Shown here: piece by piece, positions 5,923 to 46,413 of the stretch | How the letters are laid out: each line of letters starts with the position of its first letter | How positions within the stretch are numbered: the stretch's first letter is position 1 | Assembly (NCBI GenBank): GCA_030649895.1 | Contig: JAUSEX010000052.1 | Coordinates: 80,988 to 144,987 of the forward strand | Reading direction: 5' to 3' | Origin: Candidatus Omnitrophota bacterium | Lineage (GTDB): Bacteria; Omnitrophota; Gorgyraeia; Gorgyraeales; Gorgyraeaceae | DNA: 64,000 nt | Notes under the pieces: generated by a model | What the model was told of the DNA's origin: nothing | Database searches by the model: none | What the model saw: only the letters and a program-made list of their open reading frames with translations | Made by a program: the position numbers and the translations under genes

Positions 5923-6201
5923 CTACCTTTTAACGCTTGAAAAGAAAGCATTGAGTTCATCTGCTAGCTGAACATCTCTACCTTTGGCGTTAAACGGAGC
6001 TAATAATTCATAAAAGGCCTTGTATGGAATAATTAATCCGGTAATATAATCTTTCTCTTTTAAAACCTTTACTCCTGGCAAGCCAGCTATCTTCTTAAAA
6101 AAAGAACCTATTTGTTTAACATCATTAAGCGTGGCCTCCGGCAGCCTCCATTCAAATTCAATCTCAAATTCATCCTTTCTATATGCGCATCTTTTAATCA
6201 T
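5923..6201 (-). CDS. Hypothetical 92-aa protein
   Basis: ORF in operon context with a 4-nt overlap to the downstream gene. No recognisable motif. Confidence 0.4.
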   Translation of the reverse strand: MIKRCAYRKDEFEIEFEWRLPEATLNDVKQIGSFFKKIAGLPGVKVLKEKDYITGLIIPYKAFYELLAPFNAKGRDVQLADELNAFFSSVKR

Positions 6202-7211
6202 TTTTGCGTCTCCTGCGAAATTATGTCATAAATACTTATTGATTGGTCAGGTAATACAAGTCCATGGCGACAAATTGAACAGCCTTTACAATCCATCCTT
6301 CTTCCGGACTTGTGCAGTTCGCGCAATTCGTTTAGTTTATCGCCATGCCATAATGCGCGCAGAGAAATGTCATTTACATTTCCCAGGGTTATATCTTCAG
6401 CGTCCCAGCCGGTGCAACACTGCACCCTGCCATTATGAGCTACCATCAAGCGTTCCCAGGGATACTGACAAACAAAACCAGGAACTGGCCTGCGATTATT
6501 CAAATCCATGTATTCGTTCATCACCACGAGGTCAGAAACCTTACTTAAACATTCATAATATCCTAAAGGATCCATAGAAACAGCCGGCCAAATAGAACAA
6601 ACGCGTATCTGCGGGTTAACTAACCCCAAACTGTCCCTTTTTTCCTTAAGATACTTGAGTTTATTAAGGCTTTCTTCAAATTTAGCGGGAAAGCGAATTC
6701 GATTATAAACTTCTCCCATGCCATCAAAAGAACAGCCTAAATAAGTCAGACCTTTTTCAATAAGAAAATCCGCCACTTCCTTTGTCACTAAGAACGTATT
6801 TGTCAGAAAAGAGACATTTGAAATCCTCTTGCATGCATATTCAACCATATCAAAAATCCTGGGATGAGTTAATGACTCGCCGCGCCAGCTAAGTCTCAGC
6901 GAATAGACTCCGTTTTCTTTGCATTCGTCAACTATTTTAGTGAAAACGTTCCAATTCATATCTCCCAGGTCTCTGAATTTTTTGCGAAAACACATTGGGC
7001 AGTTCATATTGCAATTGCTTGTAGTCTCTATGTCGACATGGAGCGGAAAATTAGATACAAAATAATTTTTAGAGTACTCATACCACTGCAAACGGTTAAT
7101 AAAGGTCTCCAAAAAATCGCCATGACTGCCATAGAACCTCCAAAAACGGCTTGGTGAGTCATAAACGCGCTGGTCTTTATTCGTATTCATGCTTATTCTC
7201 TCCTTCACCAT
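6198..7211 (-). CDS. Radical SAM protein with a SPASM/twitch-like C-terminal Cys cluster
   Basis: CNMNCPMC (CxxxCxxC). C-terminal CCTGW...CKGCSIC. Confidence 0.7.
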   Translation of the reverse strand: MVKERISMNTNKDQRVYDSPSRFWRFYGSHGDFLETFINRLQWYEYSKNYFVSNFPLHVDIETTSNCNMNCPMCFRKKFRDLGDMNWNVFTKIVDECKENGVYSLRLSWRGESLTHPRIFDMVEYACKRISNVSFLTNTFLVTKEVADFLIEKGLTYLGCSFDGMGEVYNRIRFPAKFEESLNKLKYLKEKRDSLGLVNPQIRVCSIWPAVSMDPLGYYECLSKVSDLVVMNEYMDLNNRRPVPGFVCQYPWERLMVAHNGRVQCCTGWDAEDITLGNVNDISLRALWHGDKLNELRELHKSGRRMDCKGCSICRHGLVLPDQSISIYDIISQETQK

Positions 7212-8261
7212 CTACTTGAAACAATCCCAGATAATCGGCTCTCCTTTTAAAATACGCCTTTGCGCCCTTATCCCATAAATATGCTGCAACAATCCAGGCT
7301 CTATTCCTCCTTCCGGCCTCAAAATGTCTACATTTTTTTCTGTAATCATTTCTCCTTCTTTGATATCTTTTACGGCATATATGGATTTTTTAAAAACCTG
7401 CCGTATCCCTTTCTCGGCATCTGTAACATCCTTATAAGGCAAACCCATCGCCTTTTCAGTCTCACGGATACCCTTAATTATCAATTCCATTTCATAAGGC
7501 ATCGTTGAAAAGAAATTATCAGGGCCAAGGGCTTCTCTTTTCAGTGTAAAATGTTTCTCTATAACACATGCCCCCATAGCAACAGCAGCAATAGGTATTG
7601 AAGTCGTCATCGTATGGTCGCTTAAACCAACAGGCACATCAAAAGTTTTCATTAATGTCTGCATCGTCCTTAAATTCATATCTTCAGGCCTTGCAGGATA
7701 TTGCGAAACGCAATGTAATAATATAGCATCGCTATTGCCTTCTTCTTTTATCGCCCTGATTGCGCTATCAATCTCTGAAAGATAGGACACCCCGGAAGAG
7801 ATTATCATTGGTTTTTTAAGCCGGGCTATATATTTTAAGAGAGGAATATTAGTCAAATCATCGGAACCAAGCTTATAGGCAGGAGGTCTGGCAATCTTTT
7901 CCAACAGGTCTACATCTTTAAAATGGCTCGGGGTAGAAAAAGCGGTTATATCTTTTTTCGCAGCATATAAAAATAACTCTTTTTGAAAATCCTCGGTCTG
8001 TTTCTCCTCGCTTTCCATAAATTCCTTATATTGGTCTATCATCCCTCTGCCATCTTTCAAATGCGTTCCTCTAATCACAGTTGTTTTGGCATGGAATGTT
8101 TGAAATTTAACGCAATCTGCTCCGATAGCCGCTGCTGAATCAACCAACCTTTTTGCACCATTTATATCATCAAAGTTCACGCCTGCTTCCAAAATAATAT
8201 AACAGGGACAATCCTTGCCTATTCTTCTTTTATTAATGACAATGGTTCCTCTCATAGACAC
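7212..8261 (-). CDS. NeuB-family nonulosonic acid synthase (N-acetylneuraminate / legionaminate / pseudaminate synthase-like)
   Basis: CYIILEAGVNFDDINGAKRLVDSAAAIGADCVKFQTF. C-terminal SAF-like region. Confidence 0.85.
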   Translation of the reverse strand: MSMRGTIVINKRRIGKDCPCYIILEAGVNFDDINGAKRLVDSAAAIGADCVKFQTFHAKTTVIRGTHLKDGRGMIDQYKEFMESEEKQTEDFQKELFLYAAKKDITAFSTPSHFKDVDLLEKIARPPAYKLGSDDLTNIPLLKYIARLKKPMIISSGVSYLSEIDSAIRAIKEEGNSDAILLHCVSQYPARPEDMNLRTMQTLMKTFDVPVGLSDHTMTTSIPIAAVAMGACVIEKHFTLKREALGPDNFFSTMPYEMELIIKGIRETEKAMGLPYKDVTDAEKGIRQVFKKSIYAVKDIKEGEMITEKNVDILRPEGGIEPGLLQHIYGIRAQRRILKGEPIIWDCFK

Positions 8262-44584: not shown

Positions 44585-45335
44585 TTTCCATGCATTTTAA
44601 GCCAAACCCCTTTACTGTCTCAGCAATAATAATCTTCGGCCTGTTTTCAGTGAATGACTTGGCTATATTTACGCAATCAGCTAATTTTGCGGCATCGTGG
44701 CCAGGACACATGGCAGGCGATAAGCCAAATCCCTTTAGCCTTTTTACTATATCAATCTTTTCCCTATCAAGGACATTCTTAATAAAATCCATTGCCTGAA
44801 GCCTGTTGCAATCAATAATAACAATGAGATTTTTTACTTCATGTTTAACCGCAAACTGCAGCGATTCCCATGTTGTTCCTTCCTGCATCTCTCCATCTCC
44901 AATAACACAAAATGTATAGTATTTTTCTTTTTGTATCTGCGCGCCGAAAGCAAGGCCTACAGCCATAGGCAAACCATGGCCAAGAGAGCCGCATCCTGCT
45001 TCAAGCCCATATTCAATCCTGCGCTCCATGCACCCAAGCAATCCACTTTCTGCCTTATAAAAATTATGCCATTCTTTTTTTGGCAGGATATCCTTATCAG
45101 CCAAAATTGAATACAGGGCATAGCATCCATGGGCCTTTGAAAAAACCAGCCTATCTCTGTCCTTACATAAAGGATCATCCGCCTTATATGACATGCTCTC
45201 ATAATATAAAGCTACCAGGATATCAACGCATGACAATGAAGGCGCAATATGGCCCGCTCCATTACGAACAGCAACTTTTATAACATCATCCCTGATATAA
45301 TCTGCTTTTTCCCGTAAAAATGCGCCTGTATTCAT
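44505..45335 (-). CDS. Transketolase, N-terminal (TPP-binding) section
   Basis: GHIAPSLSCVDILVALYY...GSLGHGLPMAVGLA...GDGEMQEG. Confidence 0.85.
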   Translation of the reverse strand: MNTGAFLREKADYIRDDVIKVAVRNGAGHIAPSLSCVDILVALYYESMSYKADDPLCKDRDRLVFSKAHGCYALYSILADKDILPKKEWHNFYKAESGLLGCMERRIEYGLEAGCGSLGHGLPMAVGLAFGAQIQKEKYYTFCVIGDGEMQEGTTWESLQFAVKHEVKNLIVIIDCNRLQAMDFIKNVLDREKIDIVKRLKGFGLSPAMCPGHDAAKLADCVNIAKSFTENRPKIIIAETVKGFGLKCMENVPKFHFRIPTQEELSMGKSRGYREE

Positions 45336-45345
45336 AATGCCTTAC

Positions 45346-46413
45346 TCAAATAAAATTTACATGCTTAGGAGAATTCTTAAGTTCCCAAAGGTATCTATTA
45401 ATCTCATCCATCCTGCAATTTATCCTGCATTTAGATATATCGAAATCTTTTTCAAACCAATTAAGAGATTTTTCTCTTTTTTTCCCTTCCCAAATATCCT
45501 GAAATGATTGTTCATAAATATTGCCGTATAAAAATCTTTTATCCCCAAGATACACGCTGCATCCCCATACATTGCCTCCAGCATCAATATATGACCAGAA
45601 AGGAAGCGCAAAACAAGATTGATAATTTCGTTTATTGTCATCCCATTTTTTCATAGCGCGTATCCTGAATATAACATTAAAACTATCTGTATTAAATTTT
45701 CCCAGTTCATCTGCAAGGTATTCATAATCACTGTACTTTATAGAGCTAAACTTTGTTGTCCTGCTTTGAGGATGTTGAGAATACGGCTTTATAACCAAGT
45801 AATCCATTCCAATATCTTTGGCTAATTCCGCTAATTTAATAACCTCGCTAGCATTGTCAGGCAGTAATAAAAGTTGCATGCCTAAACTGCATTGGTATTT
45901 TTTCTTTTTTTTGAGCGCGGCCGCGTATGACATATTTTTTATGACTTTATCAAAATCATCTGGTTTACAACAATGTATTTTTGCATATGTTCCCCTGGTT
46001 CCGCCATTAATGCTCACCTTAATCCATTCCATGCTGCCAAGAGTTTCTTCTGCAATATCTTCAGTAAACAAAACAGCATTTGTAGTTACTGCAACATCTA
46101 TCCCTGATTTTTTAGTATGTTCTATTATTTCTGCCATTTGCTGATGTAGAAACGGCTCTCCTTCACCTGCATACATAATGCTTTTTAACCCAAGCTTCCC
46201 TAATTCCGCTAATCTTTCTTTCAATATATGACTGTCTAAATACCTGGATTTATATCCCATAAAATCCAGGCCGCAATACACGCACCTGTGATTACACGCT
46301 CCTGAAGGGCTTACTTCCATGTAAACGGGGTAAGTTGTTTTTCCCTCCAACCATTCATGCAGGCGATTGACATGATAAATAAGCTTATGGCTGTCTATCC
46401 TGTATTTATCCAT
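45346..46413 (-). CDS. Radical SAM protein (CNHxCxYC type), paralog-like of the 39437..40507 product
   Basis: SPSGACNHRCVYCGL. Confidence 0.7.
   Translation of the reverse strand: MDKYRIDSHKLIYHVNRLHEWLEGKTTYPVYMEVSPSGACNHRCVYCGLDFMGYKSRYLDSHILKERLAELGKLGLKSIMYAGEGEPFLHQQMAEIIEHTKKSGIDVAVTTNAVLFTEDIAEETLGSMEWIKVSINGGTRGTYAKIHCCKPDDFDKVIKNMSYAAALKKKKKYQCSLGMQLLLLPDNASEVIKLAELAKDIGMDYLVIKPYSQHPQSRTTKFSSIKYSDYEYLADELGKFNTDSFNVIFRIRAMKKWDDNKRNYQSCFALPFWSYIDAGGNVWGCSVYLGDKRFLYGNIYEQSFQDIWEGKKREKSLNWFEKDFDISKCRINCRMDEINRYLWELKNSPKHVNFI

What the first reader, a model, noticed from the sequence alone, without database searches (positions are those of the whole stretch)
6198..46413. Exceptional density of radical SAM tailoring enzymes (7, of which 4 are B12-binding class B) plus 4 SAM methyltransferases inside a glycan locus
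CxxxCxxC motifs with N-terminal B12-binding-like Rossmann domains occur in 9010..10539, 11923..13278, 25659..26990 and 40519..41952. SPASM/twitch-like radical SAMs are at 6198..7211, 39437..40507 and 45346..46413; the last two share a CNHxCxYC motif. Class B radical SAM enzymes typically catalyse methylation at unactivated carbons (or other difficult alkylations). Four of them next to nonulosonate and heptose genes imply C-methylated or otherwise rearranged sugars, chemistry that is essentially uncharacterised for nonulosonic acids. Class I methyltransferases at 3206..4378, 27715..28509 and 41966..42625 add N/O-methylation capacity.
Basis: partly seen in the sequence, partly recalled or inferred. 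Interest (0 to 1): 0.75.

Follow-up and report, generated by a model that had tools for sequence, protein, structure and literature searches.

The report
Radical-SAM-rich surface sugar gene cluster
An uncultured anaerobic bacterium (Omnitrophota) carries a long surface-sugar gene cluster in which seven oxygen-sensitive "radical SAM" enzymes belong to three gene cassettes that recur in other anaerobic bacteria and in archaea, so they probably make sialic-acid-like and heptose-like sugars with unusual, still uncharacterised modifications.

Summary
Seven radical SAM (rSAM) genes lie at the stated coordinates, all with CxxxCxxC. Four have the class B architecture of a B12-binding domain plus an rSAM barrel. 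Only three class I methyltransferases exist, not four. None of the seven reaches the cutoff of any named family.

The new result is comparative. The seven are not a random pile-up. They belong to three conserved, unnamed cassettes.
- **Cassette A:** methyltransferase, CMP-nonulosonate synthetase, B12-rSAM "B3" and an unknown 457 aa protein, inside a legionaminic-type pathway. It recurs in Planctomycetota, Pacebacteria (a candidate-phyla-radiation bacterium) and Woesearchaeota.
- **Cassette B:** a divergent NeuB with PIG-L, WbqC, a DUF692-like protein, a SPASM rSAM and two B12-rSAMs. It recurs in Scalindua, Desulfobacterota (once beside a Maf flagellin glycosyltransferase) and Methanocalculus.
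- **Cassette C:** a heptose-like activation set, a split transketolase-like enzyme, two twitch-like rSAMs, a methyltransferase and one B12-rSAM. It recurs in Brocadiaceae, Elusimicrobia and Desulfobacterales.

Similar rSAM density occurs in those loci, so the window is not unique. Sugar tailoring is well supported. C-methylation is plausible but unproven: B3's best structural match is AprD4, a dehydratase. Recent mass spectrometry reports CMP-activated C10 ulosonic acids with no assigned enzyme, which makes the idea testable.

The parts
3206..4378 (-). Class I SAM methyltransferase MT1 (390 aa), at the edge of cassette B
   Evidence: PF08241 at 44 bits. 45% identical to L008:11397-12587, beside NeuB in Methanocalculus.
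4406..5903 (-). Hexapeptide acyltransferase (4406-5059) and beta-keto acid cleavage enzyme BKACE (5043-5903). They may supply or transfer an unusual N-acyl group.
   Evidence: PF00132 at 48.6 bits and PF05853 at 257.7 bits. BKACE is below the NCBIfam equivalog cutoffs. The proposed role is inference.
6198..7211 (-). rS1: radical SAM plus SPASM enzyme of cassette B, abutting NeuB#1
   Evidence: PF04055 at 60.7 and PF13186 at 41.2 bits. CNMNCPMC at residue 67. 41%, 35% and 30% identical to rSAMs in L006, L008 and L007. Its C-terminus resembles the BtrN twitch domain.
7212..8261 (-). NeuB#1: divergent PEP-condensing ulosonate synthase of cassette B
   Evidence: PF03102 at 255 bits. It is below both the NeuB cutoff (305 against 399.65) and the PseI cutoff (295.6 against 340.25).
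8252..9013 (-). DUF692 / MbnB-like TIM-barrel protein. It overlaps the B1 gene by 4 nt, at B1's stop-codon end.
   Evidence: PF05114 at 45 bits. Far below every MNIO equivalog cutoff. 34% identical to L007:5682-6257 in the Scalindua-type cassette.
9010..10539 (-). B1: divergent B12-domain radical SAM (509 aa)
   Evidence: PF04055 at 68 bits. PF02310 at 30.4 bits, just under its 32.1 cutoff. Relatives pass the B12 cutoff. Relatives are fused to WbqC, PIG-L or methyltransferase domains.
10556..11272 (-). WbqC-family protein of unknown function
   Evidence: PF08889 at 248 bits. 39-44% identical to WbqC genes in L006, L007 and L008. The domain is fused to a B1-like rSAM in P0381.
11275..11901 (-). 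Cytidylyltransferase #1 (CMP-ulosonate synthetase type)
   Evidence: PF02348 at 87 bits. The best NCBIfam hit is PseF at 111.8 bits, below the 205.7 cutoff.
11923..13278 (-). B2: B12-binding radical SAM of cassette B
   Evidence: PF02310 at 66.9 and PF04055 at 71.6 bits. Its orthogroup holds about 90 proteins. Orthologues at 59%, 42%, 42% and 50% identity lie in nonulosonate or flagellin-glycosylation loci L007, L006, L008 and L097.
13266..13934 (-). PIG-L family de-N-acetylase. It overlaps the B2 gene by 13 nt.
   Evidence: PF02585 at 73.5 bits. 55% identical to L007:184-837. The domain is fused to B1-like rSAMs in P0412 and P0405.
13938..15853 (-). SDR 4,6-dehydratase/epimerase (13938-14918) and DegT aminotransferase (14879-15853), feeding cassette B
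   Evidence: PF01370 at 190.7 and PF01041 at 205.5 bits. Both are sub-threshold for LegB, PseB, PseC and LegC.
24289..25662 (-). Unknown 457 aa protein, the conserved partner of B3 in cassette A
   Evidence: No hit in Pfam, NCBIfam or PDB. 60%, 59% and 33-37% identical to the genes next to B3 orthologues in L001, L003 and L092. It overlaps the B3 gene by 4 nt.
25659..26990 (-). B3: B12-binding radical SAM of cassette A, starting 3 nt after the CMP-synthetase gene ends
   Evidence: PF02310 at 69.9 and PF04055 at 90 bits. Orthologues at 48-71% identity always follow a CTP_transf_3 gene. The AF2 model has pLDDT 89.9 and the class B fold.
26994..27725 (-). Cytidylyltransferase #2 (CMP-nonulosonate synthetase of the legionaminic-type pathway)
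   Evidence: PF02348 at 84.7 bits. 49-52% identical to the genes upstream of B3 orthologues in L001 and L003.
27715..28509 (-). Class I SAM methyltransferase MT2 of cassette A
   Evidence: PF08241 at 65 bits. 37% identical to the methyltransferase domain upstream of the CMP-synthetase gene in L001.
28517..35508 (-). Legionaminic/neuraminic-type nonulosonate core pathway. In order by coordinate: PseB/FnlA-like dehydratase, CE4 deacetylase, GNAT, DegT, hexapeptide N-acetyltransferase, NeuC (33311-34453) and NeuB#2 (34450-35508).
   Evidence: Pfam. NeuB#2 passes TIGR03569 (475 against 399.65). NeuC passes TIGR03568 (434 against 235.9). The PseB-like dehydratase is below its cutoff (315 against 407.75).
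38556..39440 (-). RmlD-like reductase at the downstream end of cassette C
   Evidence: PF04321 at 104 bits. An RmlD-like gene follows the B4 orthologue in L094 (38% identity).
39437..40507 (-). rS2: radical SAM with a twitch-like four-Cys C-terminus, in cassette C
   Evidence: PF04055 at 71 bits. CNHNCLYC at residue 41. 68-70% identical to L009:9118-10185 and L011:11527-12600, and 56% to L094. The best PDB match is BlsE.
40519..41952 (-). B4: B12-binding radical SAM lying between MT3 and rS2
   Evidence: PF02310 at 71.4 and PF04055 at 87.2 bits. It has no orthologue in L009-L011 (30% identity or less). A 63% orthologue lies next to an rS2 orthologue in L094, and a 43% relative lies next to an MT3-like gene in L095.
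41966..42649 (-). Class I SAM methyltransferase MT3 of cassette C
   Evidence: PF13847 at 64.3 bits. 74% and 59% identical to the methyltransferases at the same position in L011 and L009.
42677..43708 (-). IS110-family transposase. The element fills the gap between the transketolase-pyr gene and MT3, inside cassette C.
   Evidence: PF01548 at 66 and PF02371 at 72 bits. Sequence read. The neighbouring genes are intact.
44030..45335 (-). Split thiamine-diphosphate (transketolase-like) enzyme: N subunit at 44505-45335, and a short pyrimidine-binding subunit of about 160 aa within 44030-44584
   Evidence: PF00456 at 92 and PF02779 at 55 bits. The subunits are 53% and 62% identical, end to end, to the L097 pair. 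That pair includes a natural 163 aa pyr-only subunit ending in the same '...AGYIRV'.
45346..46413 (-). rS3: radical SAM plus SPASM/twitch enzyme, the core of cassette C
   Evidence: PF04055 at 66.6 and PF13186 at 32.6 bits. CNHRCVYC at residue 40. The family is 67-87% identical at a fixed 355 aa. Orthologues at 59-72% identity lie in L009, L010, L011 and L097. Best PDB matches are BlsE and DesII.
46406..49492 (-). Sugar-phosphate activation set of cassette C: SIS isomerase (GmhA-like), a nucleotidyltransferase-kinase fusion (HldE-like, with reversed domain order) and a GSU2086-family protein
   Evidence: Pfam. GmhA scores 104.8 against 209.45. HldE scores 170.8 against 521, with the nucleotidyltransferase at residues 32-170 and the kinase at 209-523. 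NF052581 scores 369.6 against 250. The genes are 46-62% identical to their counterparts in L009-L011.

Best explanation
The region is the biosynthetic part of a surface-glycan island in an anaerobic Candidatus Omnitrophota bacterium. Export and assembly genes (Wza-like, Wzi, an ABC flippase-like protein, glycosyltransferases and a PMT-type GT-C) are interleaved with it or flank it. The seven radical SAM enzymes are sugar-tailoring enzymes. They belong to three evolutionarily conserved, still unnamed cassettes.

**Cassette A (24289-35508).** A legionaminic/neuraminic-type nonulosonate pathway ends in a tightly packed group of four genes, separated by at most 3 nt or overlapping: methyltransferase, CMP-nonulosonate synthetase, B12-rSAM B3 and an unknown 457 aa protein. 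I infer that B3 acts on the nonulosonate around the activation step, most likely on the CMP-sugar.

**Cassette B (about 3206-15853).** A second, divergent NeuB pathway contains a PIG-L de-N-acetylase, WbqC, a DUF692-like TIM barrel, its own cytidylyltransferase, a SPASM rSAM (rS1) and two B12-rSAMs (B1 and B2). Its logic resembles aminoglycoside tailoring: deacetylase, twitch-rSAM oxidation, transamination, then class B rSAM chemistry.

**Cassette C (38556-49492).** A heptose-like route (isomerase, kinase, nucleotidyltransferase) is combined with a split transketolase-like thiamine enzyme, two paralogous twitch-type rSAMs (rS3 and rS2), a methyltransferase, B12-rSAM B4 and a reductase. This would give a nucleotide-activated higher-carbon or branched sugar.

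**Shown:** domain identities, cluster motifs, the class B fold of B3, conserved synteny and gene fusions.

**Inferred:** the substrates, and that the B12-type enzymes most likely methylate unactivated sugar or N-acyl carbons. The position is unknown, and dehydration or rearrangement is the main alternative.
For: **Domains and motifs.**

**Source.** An Omnitrophota MAG, where the proteins are annotated only as 'radical SAM protein'.

**Cassette A.**
- B3 orthologues at 48-71% identity lie directly after a CTP_transf_3 gene, with NeuB within 10 kb. This holds in 4 of 4 independent lineages: Planctomycetota L001, unassigned L003, Woesearchaeota L004 and Pacebacteria L092.
- NeuB or a cytidylyltransferase was each found near only 1 of 51 loci holding B12-rSAM paralogues at 29-45% identity. 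The hypergeometric P is about 1.5e-5 (my calculation).
- The unknown 457 aa partner is co-conserved.
- Some family members are fused to class I methyltransferases.

**Cassette B.**
- PIG-L, WbqC, NeuB, a SPASM rSAM and a B2 orthologue recur together in a Pseudodesulfovibrio-type contig, a Scalindua-type contig and Methanocalculus; a CTP_transf_3 gene lies in the fetched part of the last two.
- In Desulfobacterales the B2 orthologue sits beside a Maf-type flagellin glycosyltransferase and fliD.
- B1-like domains are fused to WbqC, PIG-L or methyltransferase domains in giant proteins.

**Cassette C.** rS3, rS2, MT3, SIS and the HldE-like and transketolase genes are 46-74% identical and syntenic in Brocadiaceae, Elusimicrobia, another Omnitrophota and Desulfobacterales. 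B4 pairs with rS2 in L094.

**Closest solved relatives act on sugars or nucleosides.** These are AprD4, OxsB, BtrN, BlsE and DesII.

**Operon structure.** 30 of 46 gene junctions are 10 nt or less.

**Chemical precedent.**
- In Ca. Kuenenia, CMP-nonulosonates carry a free amine and there are +14 Da variants, so tailoring happens at the CMP-sugar level.
- In Magnetospirillum there are CMP-linked C10-backbone ulosonic acids with no enzyme assigned.
- Sources: bioRxiv 10.1101/2020.12.03.409086 and 10.64898/2026.04.20.719630.
Against: - No enzyme of any of these families has been characterised, and none reaches a curated family cutoff.
- Methyl transfer is not demonstrated. B3's top structural match and best PDB sequence match is AprD4, which is a 1,2-diol dehydratase and, from my own knowledge of the literature, does not use cobalamin. 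The top NCBIfam hits include HpnJ and BchE, which are not methylases.
- Cobalamin binding cannot be tested from sequence.
- The conserved contexts number only 3-5 lineages per cassette, and all but the Methanocalculus locus come from MAGs or metagenomic contigs.
- B1 has no orthologue in the other cassette B loci, and B4 has none in three of the cassette C loci.
- An IS110 element sits inside cassette C and could have polar effects.
- I did not check whether Magnetospirillum or Kuenenia actually encode B2 or B3 orthologues.
Confidence: 0.55

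Rival explanations
1. The B12-domain enzymes are sugar-tailoring enzymes but not methyltransferases. They would catalyse radical dehydration or deoxygenation (as AprD4 does), ring contraction or rearrangement (as OxsB and HpnJ do), or epimerisation of the nonulosonate or nucleotide sugar. All methyl groups would then come from the three class I methyltransferases.
For: - AprD4 is the best Foldseek hit for B3 (E 2e-25, TM 0.76) and the best PDB sequence hit for B3 and B4.
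- HpnJ, which acts on a glucosamine-derived moiety, is the best NCBIfam hit for B2, B3 and B4, although far below its cutoff.
- A class I methyltransferase sits in each cassette and is sometimes fused to B3-like proteins. These could account for the +14 Da species seen in anammox bacteria.
Against: - The N-terminal domain aligns in sequence with true cobalamin binders (TokK, CysS, OxsB). The AprD4 sequence alignment covers only the rSAM core.
- From general knowledge, most characterised class B enzymes are methylases.
- TsrM, MgmA, CysS and TokK match the structure almost as well as AprD4 does, with TM 0.68-0.77.
- A C10 backbone reported in CMP-ulosonic acids needs a carbon-adding enzyme.
Confidence: 0.3
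2. Some of the radical SAM enzymes are peptide (RiPP) maturases that merely sit in the glycan locus. The candidates are the SPASM enzymes and the MbnB-like/B1 pair, which resembles the ApyH/ApyD pair.
For: - The best NCBIfam hits of the DUF692-like protein and of B1 include ApyH (51 bits) and ApyD (52 bits).
- The SPASM enzymes hit many peptide-maturase models weakly.
Against: - All these hits are 5-15 times below the curated cutoffs.
- No precursor-peptide gene is evident. Genes overlap or abut at 30 of 46 junctions, and the only unannotated ORF in a gap next to cassette B (92 aa) has no family and no Cys-rich core.
- The same genes are syntenic with NeuB, cytidylyltransferase, PIG-L and WbqC across phyla, and are fused to WbqC and PIG-L.
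Confidence: 0.03
3. The B12-rSAMs modify lipids, for example hopanoid, ladderane-type or membrane-spanning lipids, or the lipid anchor of the glycan. They would not modify the sugars.
For: - NCBIfam hits include HpnJ, HpnR and the 'lipid biosynthesis B12-binding/radical SAM protein' TIGR04072, at 100-128 bits for B2-B4.
- Relatives occur in anammox bacteria.
Against: - All scores are far below cutoff (360-650 bits).
- No lipid-synthesis genes lie in the window or in the related loci.
- The enzymes are tightly coupled to cytidylyltransferase, NeuB, Maf, PIG-L and WbqC.
Confidence: 0.04
4. The clustering is an accident of assembly or mobile-element traffic, and part of the locus is inactive.
For: - The contig is a MAG.
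- An IS110 element lies inside cassette C.
- Polysaccharide cassettes are reported as hypervariable in Omnitrophota (bioRxiv 10.64898/2026.06.07.730766).
Against: - All genes are co-directional, with tight junctions and intact ORFs.
- Each cassette is reproduced in independent assemblies from other phyla.
- The ORF I first took for a truncation is a natural short subunit.
Confidence: 0.03

Closest known systems
Fom3 with the Fom1 cytidylyltransferase domain (fosfomycin): a class B radical SAM C-methylase acting on cytidylylated hydroxyethylphosphonate. Recalled from the literature, not tested here.
   Same: A B12-rSAM is genetically and functionally paired with a cytidylyltransferase, and the radical enzyme works on the CMP-activated substrate. 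Cassette A has the same logic, with the CMP-synthetase gene followed 3 nt later by B3. Phosphonate P- and C-methylase models (PhpK and the Sden_1168 family) are among the better NCBIfam hits for B3 and B4, at 148 and 186 bits.
   Different: The scores are far below cutoff (575-600). The cytidylyltransferase here is the CTP_transf_3 (NeuA/KdsB/PseF) type. No PEP mutase or other phosphonate gene is present. The presumed substrate is a nine-carbon ulosonic acid.
Aminoglycoside tailoring enzymes: GenK (class B C-methylase), AprD4 (diol dehydratase), BtrN (twitch rSAM dehydrogenase) and BtrD (PIG-L deacetylase)
   Same: Cassette B has the same enzyme classes working together on amino sugars: a PIG-L deacetylase, a twitch/SPASM rSAM, DegT aminotransferases and B12-domain rSAMs. 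AprD4 and BtrN are among the closest solved relatives.
   Different: Identity is only about 20%. The pathway is built around NeuB and a cytidylyltransferase, so the products are ulosonic acids for cell-surface glycans, not pseudo-oligosaccharide antibiotics. GenK itself was not compared.
Campylobacter jejuni legionaminic acid pathway (LegB/C/H/G/I/F with PtmG/PtmH tailoring)
   Same: The core of cassette A has a dehydratase, an aminotransferase, a hexapeptide N-acetyltransferase, a NeuC/LegG-type hydrolysing 2-epimerase (passes its cutoff), a NeuB/LegI-type synthase (passes its cutoff) and a CMP-synthetase, plus tailoring genes inserted in the operon.
   Different: The tailoring set here is a B12-rSAM, an unknown 457 aa protein, a CE4 deacetylase and a GNAT, none of which occurs in the Campylobacter pathway. 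The dehydratase and the CMP-synthetase are below their equivalog cutoffs. Stereochemistry (Leg, Pse or another epimer) is not determined.
HpnJ (hopanoid-associated B12-rSAM), the best NCBIfam hit of B2, B3 and B4
   Same: The class B architecture, and a substrate that (from the literature) is a glucosamine-derived moiety.
   Different: Scores are 131-207 bits against a cutoff of 577.6, and there are no hopanoid genes. These proteins are not members of the family.
BlsE (cytosylglucuronate decarboxylase) and DesII (TDP-4-amino-4,6-dideoxyglucose deaminase)
   Same: They are the closest solved relatives of rS2 and rS3, and they are radical SAM enzymes acting on nucleotide-linked sugars.
   Different: The matches are only 28-36 bits over the N-terminal core. 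rS2 and rS3 carry a four-Cys twitch-like C-terminus and form their own very conserved family of 355 aa proteins at 67-87% identity.
ADP-heptose pathway (GmhA, HldE, GmhB), and two-carbon branch-forming thiamine enzymes of branched-sugar pathways (a lead from memory)
   Same: Cassette C has an SIS isomerase, a sugar kinase and a nucleotidyltransferase, the same reaction types as heptose activation. A split transketolase-like enzyme could supply or extend the ketose.
   Different: GmhA and HldE are well below their cutoffs, and the domain order of the fusion is reversed. No HAD phosphatase was found. The transketolase pyr subunit lacks the usual C-terminal domain.

Membership tests
Class B (cobalamin-dependent) radical SAM enzymes | A CxxxCxxC motif for the radical SAM [4Fe-4S] cluster, inside a PF04055 core | tested here: met
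   All four have it (B1 at C209, B2 at C218, B3 at C217, B4 at C212). PF04055 scores 68-90 bits.
Class B (cobalamin-dependent) radical SAM enzymes | An N-terminal Rossmann-type B12-binding domain (PF02310) | tested here: met
   B2, B3 and B4 score 66.9-71.4 bits against a cutoff of 32.1. B1 scores 30.4, just under cutoff, but its relatives at 34-37% identity score 44.5-63 bits.
Class B (cobalamin-dependent) radical SAM enzymes | A two-domain fold like TsrM, OxsB, TokK, CysS and MgmA | tested here: met
   Tested for B3 only. The AF2 model has pLDDT 89.9, and Foldseek gives TM 0.68-0.77 to these structures, and also to AprD4.
Class B (cobalamin-dependent) radical SAM enzymes | Actual cobalamin binding, and methyl transfer through methylcobalamin | not testable with these tools
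   AprD4 shows that the fold does not guarantee either property (plus my own knowledge of the literature).
Named class B families (HpnJ, BchE, ApyD, PhpK/Sden_1168, MgmA TIGR04014, HpnR, KedN5, BzaD, TsrM-type and others) | A score at or above the curated NCBIfam cutoff | tested here: not met
   The best is 207 bits (B3 against HpnJ) where the cutoff is 577.6. Every other hit is also below its cutoff.
SPASM/twitch radical SAM enzymes | A radical SAM core plus a C-terminal Cys-rich auxiliary-cluster domain (PF13186) | tested here: met
   rS1 scores 41.2 bits and rS3 scores 32.6 bits against a cutoff of 21.5. rS2 has no PF13186 hit, but its Cys271/289/329/333 match Cys267/285/329/333 of rS3.
SPASM/twitch radical SAM enzymes | The full seven-Cys SPASM motif (two auxiliary clusters) as opposed to twitch (one cluster) | tested here: inconclusive
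   rS2 and rS3 have four C-terminal Cys, which looks twitch-like. rS1 has C248, C265, C266, C308, C311 and C314. Cluster stoichiometry cannot be read from sequence.
Named SPASM families (peptide maturases, anSME, NirJ/AhbC/D, BlsE, DesII, MoaA, tungsten-cofactor maturase) | A score at or above the curated NCBIfam cutoff | tested here: not met
   The best is TIGR04317 at 84-102 bits against a cutoff of 380.
Nonulosonic acid (Neu/Leg-type) biosynthesis | A NeuB/LegI-type PEP-condensing synthase | tested here: met
   NeuB#2 scores 475.4 against the TIGR03569 cutoff of 399.65. NeuB#1 is below both the NeuB and the PseI cutoffs.
Nonulosonic acid (Neu/Leg-type) biosynthesis | A hydrolysing UDP/GDP-HexNAc 2-epimerase (NeuC/LegG) | tested here: met
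   33311-34453 scores 434.4 against the TIGR03568 cutoff of 235.9. Cassette B has no such gene.
Nonulosonic acid (Neu/Leg-type) biosynthesis | A CMP-nonulosonate synthetase | tested here: inconclusive
   Two PF02348 proteins pass the Pfam cutoff. The best equivalog, PseF, scores 112 and 127 bits against a cutoff of 205.7.
ADP-heptose pathway | GmhA, HldE and GmhB equivalogs | tested here: not met
   GmhA scores 104.8 against 209.45. HldE scores 170.8 against 521, with reversed domain order. No HAD-type phosphatase was found among the long (100 aa or more) minus-strand ORFs.
RiPP maturation systems (MNIO, or SPASM with a precursor peptide) | An adjacent precursor-peptide gene, and an MNIO or maturase equivalog score | tested here: not met
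   No candidate precursor gene is evident. ApyH scores 51 against a cutoff of 400, and ChrH, BufB and HvfB are also far below cutoff.

The most novel reading that the evidence does not exclude
The CMP-synthetase-coupled B12-radical SAM enzymes (B3, and B2 in the second pathway) add a methyl group to an unactivated carbon of a CMP-activated legionaminic/pseudaminic-type sugar. This would create C-methylated ulosonic acids, effectively ten-carbon or branched. They would then be the first radical SAM enzymes of nonulosonate biosynthesis, and the missing enzymes behind the unassigned 'C10-backbone' CMP-ulosonic acids recently seen by mass spectrometry. The modification would be widespread on the surfaces and flagella of anaerobic bacteria, CPR bacteria and DPANN or methanogenic archaea.
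Probability: 0.3. Interest if true: 0.8.

Novelty: new variant of a known kind. Interest (0 to 1): 0.62.

Why it matters
**Why nonulosonic acids matter.** These sialic-acid-like sugars cap bacterial and archaeal surface glycans and flagellins. They govern phage recognition, immune evasion and surface charge. All characterised routes to them use only conventional, non-radical enzymes.

**What this adds.** There are conserved radical SAM cassettes welded to NeuB and CMP-synthetase genes across Omnitrophota, Planctomycetota/anammox bacteria, Desulfobacterota, CPR bacteria, DPANN archaea and a methanogen. That points to an anaerobic branch of nonulosonate chemistry that nobody has characterised.

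**The open chemical observations it could explain.** These are CMP-activated ulosonic acids with an extended (C10) carbon backbone in Magnetospirillum, and undescribed free-amine and +14 Da nonulosonates in an anammox bacterium. This work gives concrete candidate genes for them.

**Experimental entry points.** Orthologues of one of the enzymes occur in Pseudodesulfovibrio and Methanocalculus genomes.

**Limit of the claim.** The enzyme classes themselves are known, and this particular window is one example among many similar loci.

Tried and rejected
1. **IS110 truncation, retracted.** I first concluded that IS110 had truncated the transketolase C subunit, because only residues 1-132 of a 314 aa orthologue aligned. 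A Desulfobacterales locus has a natural 163 aa pyr-only subunit that is 62% identical end to end with the same C-terminus. The IS is therefore intergenic.
2. **The unknown 457 aa partner of B3.** From its invariant VDTEGP, HYHP and DHDFRD motifs I guessed it was a CE4-like deacetylase or a GT-B transferase. Four tests gave no support. hhalign against the window's CE4 enzyme gave probability 0.3. Pfam, NCBIfam and a PDB profile search found nothing. BLAST of the Capsule_synth protein of L004 against the window proteins matched only 22408-24258, not this protein. A single-sequence AlphaFold model was unusable, at pLDDT 35. It remains unknown.
3. **Genome scan.** The species-genome scan with a B3-family alignment returned only paralogues at 29-45% identity and did not recover the source genome. 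I used it as a negative control instead.
4. **Metagenome scan.** The scan for B4 gave only three loci, two of them short.
5. **Literature.** Searches pairing 'radical SAM' with nonulosonic, legionaminic, pseudaminic, flagellin glycosylation, S-layer/anammox, or O-antigen/B12-binding/sialic acid found nothing relevant. A search for 'B12-binding radical SAM' with glycosyltransferase and polysaccharide, and one for WbqC, also found nothing. The library lacks most subscription journals, so absence there is weak evidence.
6. **AFDB.** The AFDB fold library was not available.
7. **RiPP reading.** Rejected; see the rival explanations.
8. **Fourth methyltransferase.** Not found.

Full report
**1. What is in the window.**
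- The long ORFs that carry recognisable domains all lie on the minus strand, and G+C is 33-44%.
- Exact-sequence look-up places the window on a 164 kb contig of a Candidatus Omnitrophota MAG. There the seven proteins carry only the generic name 'radical SAM protein', and each sits in a 90%-identity cluster of one or two members.
- Pfam and NCBIfam annotation of the long (100 aa or more) minus-strand ORFs shows one very long co-directional glycan island.
- Export and assembly genes: a Wza-like exporter with SLBB repeats, Wzi, an ABC transporter, GT1/GT4 glycosyltransferases, a PMT-type GT-C, a LIC12162-family transferase and a TIGR04372 glycosyltransferase.
- Common sugar-nucleotide genes: GDP-mannose dehydratase and reductase, UDP-glucose dehydrogenase and RmlA-like.
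- The finding's interval holds two NeuB synthases, two CTP_transf_3 cytidylyltransferases, a NeuC, several dehydratases and aminotransferases, and a heptose-like set.

**2. The observation.**
- All seven ORFs hit PF04055, and each has one canonical CxxxCxxC.
- Three of the four claimed class B enzymes pass the B12-binding domain cutoff. The fourth (B1, 9010-10539) scores 30.4 bits against 32.1, but its full-length relatives at 34-37% identity pass clearly.
- An AlphaFold model of B3 built on 14 homologues is confident (pLDDT 89.9, pTM 0.89). It superposes over both domains on AprD4, TsrM, OxsB, MgmA, CysS and TokK, with TM 0.68-0.77.
- rS1 and rS3 have SPASM domains. rS2 is a paralogue of rS3 with the same four C-terminal cysteines and the shared CNHxCxYC motif.
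- The seven are old paralogues at 22-32% identity, not recent duplicates.
- Three class I methyltransferases are present. The fourth in the title was not found.
- Seven rSAMs in 38 genes is far above a 1-3% background, which is my assumption (P about 1e-7 to 1e-4).
- None of the seven reaches the curated cutoff of any NCBIfam family.

**3. Cassette A (24289-35508).**
- The core is a Leg/Neu-type nonulosonate pathway. NeuB#2 and NeuC pass their equivalog cutoffs. A PseB/FnlA-like dehydratase, a DegT, a hexapeptide acetyltransferase, a CE4 deacetylase and a GNAT complete it.
- At its downstream end lie MT2, cytidylyltransferase #2, B3 and an unknown 457 aa protein. MT2 overlaps the cytidylyltransferase gene by 11 nt, B3 starts 3 nt after that gene ends, and the unknown protein's gene overlaps B3 by 4 nt.
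- B3 belongs to a very large family, with more than 2,690 hits at E 1e-20 or better. Some members are fused to class I methyltransferases.
- Orthologues at 48-71% identity always show the same arrangement: CTP_transf_3, then the B12-rSAM, with NeuB, NeuC-type, DegT and hexapeptide genes nearby. This holds in Planctomycetota (L001), an unassigned contig (L003), Woesearchaeota (L004) and Pacebacteria (L092). The unknown partner follows B3 in L001 and L003, and a homologue lies upstream of the cytidylyltransferase gene in L092.
- As a control, I examined 51 loci from species-representative genomes that hold B12-rSAM paralogues at 29-45% identity. NeuB and a cytidylyltransferase were each found in only one.
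- A 44% relative in Elusimicrobia lies in a glycan locus without NeuB.
- The linkage is therefore specific to the orthogroup (hypergeometric P about 1.5e-5, my calculation).

**4. Cassette B (about 3206-15853).** In the direction of transcription the order is:
- a DegT aminotransferase;
- an SDR dehydratase;
- PIG-L;
- B2;
- cytidylyltransferase #1;
- WbqC;
- B1;
- a DUF692/MbnB-like TIM barrel;
- NeuB#1, which is divergent and below both the NeuB and the PseI cutoffs;
- rS1;
- BKACE;
- a hexapeptide acyltransferase;
- MT1.

Evidence that the cassette is conserved:
- B2 defines a compact orthogroup of about 90 proteins.
- Its orthologues sit with PIG-L, WbqC, NeuB, SPASM rSAMs and methyltransferases, and often carbamoyltransferases, in three places; a cytidylyltransferase lies in the fetched part of the last two. 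These are a Pseudodesulfovibrio-type contig (L006), a Scalindua-type contig (L007, which also has the DUF692-like gene) and Methanocalculus sp. MC3 (L008).
- In a Desulfobacterales MAG the B2 orthologue lies directly beside a Maf-type (MptE-like) flagellin glycosyltransferase and fliD.
- B1 has few close relatives. Many of its more distant relatives are domains of giant proteins in which the B12-rSAM module is fused to WbqC, PIG-L or a methyltransferase, exactly its neighbours here.
- This is independent Rosetta-stone evidence for a shared pathway.

**5. Cassette C (38556-49492).**
- rS3 belongs to a strikingly conserved family: 355 aa, 67-87% identity, in Omnitrophota, Brocadiaceae, Planctomycetota and Elusimicrobia.
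- Four loci (L009 Brocadiaceae, L010 Elusimicrobia, L011 Omnitrophota and L097 Desulfobacterales) contain rS3 followed by a split transketolase-like pair, with varying subsets of the other components. An HldE-like fusion lies in L009-L011. An SIS isomerase lies in L010, L011 and L097. A methyltransferase and an rS2-type rSAM lie in L009 and L011.
- Identities to the window genes are 46-74% in L009-L011 and 34-62% in L097.
- B4 is an addition. It is absent from those loci but is paired with an rS2 orthologue and an RmlD-like gene in L094.
- The 'heptose' label is only approximate. The GmhA-like and HldE-like proteins score about half and one third of their respective cutoffs, the fusion has the reverse domain order, and no GmhB-type phosphatase is present.
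- An IS110 element occupies the gap between the transketolase-pyr gene and MT3.
- I first read the short pyr subunit as a truncation. It is in fact a natural form.

**6. What the enzymes probably do.**
- The nearest solved relatives all act on sugars or nucleosides, at low similarity: AprD4, OxsB and TokK/CysS/MgmA for the B12 class, the BtrN twitch domain for rS1, and BlsE and DesII for rS2 and rS3.
- Together with the synteny and the fusions, this makes sugar tailoring the well-supported reading.
- The RiPP, lipid and artefact readings are weak. There is no evident precursor gene, all such family scores are far below cutoff, and no lipid genes are present.
- The specific chemistry is not settled. 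C-methylation is the commonest class B reaction (general knowledge). The pairing of a cytidylyltransferase with a class B enzyme has a precedent in Fom1/Fom3, which I recall from the literature and did not test.
- Against that, AprD4 (a dehydratase) is the best structural match, and HpnJ and BchE are among the best profile hits.
- I put methylation at about 0.45-0.5 given sugar tailoring, and non-methylating radical chemistry at about 0.3 overall.

**7. Comparison with what is known.**
- I found no paper in the held library that links radical SAM enzymes to nonulosonate biosynthesis. The library lacks most subscription journals, so this is weak evidence.
- Two preprints supply relevant chemistry.
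- In Ca. Kuenenia stuttgartiensis, the S-layer glycans carry undescribed nonulosonates with a free amine (oxonium ions at m/z 261, 275 and 289) and oligo-heptose chains (10.1101/2020.12.03.409086).
- In the same organism, deacetylation, formylation and a +14 Da modification occur at the CMP-sugar level, and the cluster has two legF genes (10.64898/2026.04.20.719630).
- The second preprint also reports CMP-linked alpha-keto acids with a C10 marker fragment in Magnetospirillum gryphiswaldense. It proposes no enzyme for them.
- A CMP-synthetase-coupled C-methylating rSAM would explain such products. I could not test whether those organisms carry B2 or B3 orthologues.

**8. Verdict.**
The radical SAM enzymes are conserved partners of nonulosonate genes and of heptose-like sugar genes. 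However, methylation is unproven, the enzymes split into three separate cassettes, and this density recurs in many anaerobes' glycan loci.
- The enzyme classes are known. Their conserved recruitment into nonulosonate pathways is uncharacterised, so I rate it a new variant of a known kind, of moderate to high interest.

Noticed in passing
window 42650-44029 (transposase ORF 42677-43708, minus strand): An IS110-family element lies inside conserved cassette C, between the short transketolase-pyr gene and the methyltransferase gene. The flanking ORFs are intact, but the element may interrupt operon transcription.
   Followed up: yes
window 44030-44584; L097:18652-19143: The transketolase-like 'C' subunit is a natural pyrimidine-binding-only protein of about 160 aa, lacking the usual Transketolase_C domain. 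It is 62% identical to a 163 aa subunit in a Desulfobacterales flagellin-glycosylation locus. Other loci (L009-L011) have the full 309-356 aa form.
   Followed up: yes
window 24289-25662; L001:12073-13350; L092:6059-7300; L003:11329-12444: A conserved 413-457 aa protein family has no Pfam, NCBIfam or PDB match and always accompanies the B3-type B12-rSAM. Its invariant motifs are VDTEGP, HYHP and DHDFRD. Its function is unknown.
   Followed up: partly
relatives of window 9010-10539: P0381, P0394, P0404, P0405, P0408, P0412 and longer proteins up to 6,642 aa (P0456): B1-like B12-rSAM modules occur as domains of giant multi-domain proteins of 1,000-6,600 aa. In these they are fused to WbqC, PIG-L or methyltransferase domains. 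An Omnitrophota preprint lists radical SAM among the 'sugar metabolism' modules of its very long proteins.
   Followed up: partly
window 5043-5903 and 4406-5059: A beta-keto acid cleavage enzyme (BKACE, 258 bits) sits next to a hexapeptide acyltransferase in a glycan locus. This suggests synthesis and transfer of an unusual (acetoacetyl or hydroxybutyryl-like) N-acyl group. That reading is speculative.
   Followed up: no
window 5904-6197 (minus strand): An unannotated 92 aa ORF (MIKRCAYRKDEFEIEF...) lies in the only sizeable gap of cassette B. It has no Pfam match.
   Followed up: partly
window 1378-3168, 37276-38505 and 48509-49492: A LIC12162-family transferase (a family defined from Leptospira O-antigen loci; 394 bits), a TIGR04372 glycosyltransferase (226 bits) and a GSU2086-family protein with a deoxyhypusine-synthase-like Rossmann region (370 bits). 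The last is also conserved upstream of the HldE-like gene in a Brocadiaceae locus (62% identity).
   Followed up: partly
window 46993-48579: The HldE-like bifunctional protein has the nucleotidyltransferase domain first (residues 32-170) and the kinase second (209-523). This is the reverse of HldE. The same architecture (CTP_transf_like plus PfkB) occurs in L009-L011.
   Followed up: partly
window 14879-15853: This DegT aminotransferase is short (324 aa) and matches only positions 4-247 of the 360-position Pfam profile. It overlaps the next gene by 40 nt. It may be a C-terminal truncation or frameshift, or a divergent C-terminus.
   Followed up: no
window 62663-63979; L011:1159-2332: A UDP-glucose-dehydrogenase-like ORF lacks the N-terminal NAD domain. 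It is followed by a 148 aa ORF that hits both dTDP-sugar isomerase and Polysacc_synt_C. The same odd pair is conserved in another Omnitrophota genome, so it is probably not an artefact.
   Followed up: partly
L006 (Pseudodesulfovibrio-type), L007 (Scalindua-type), L008 (Methanocalculus) and L009: Carbamoyltransferase (NodU/CmcH-type) genes recur in L006-L009. Sulfotransferase genes occur in L006 and L007, and an ATP-sulfurylase gene in L009. None of these is present in the window. They imply further decorations of the same sugars in other lineages.
   Followed up: no
L093 (Elusimicrobia) and window 17663-18949: A flavin amine-oxidase-like gene next to an SDR epimerase recurs beside B12-rSAM genes in L093, and it is also present in the window next to RmlD. 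Its role is unknown.
   Followed up: no
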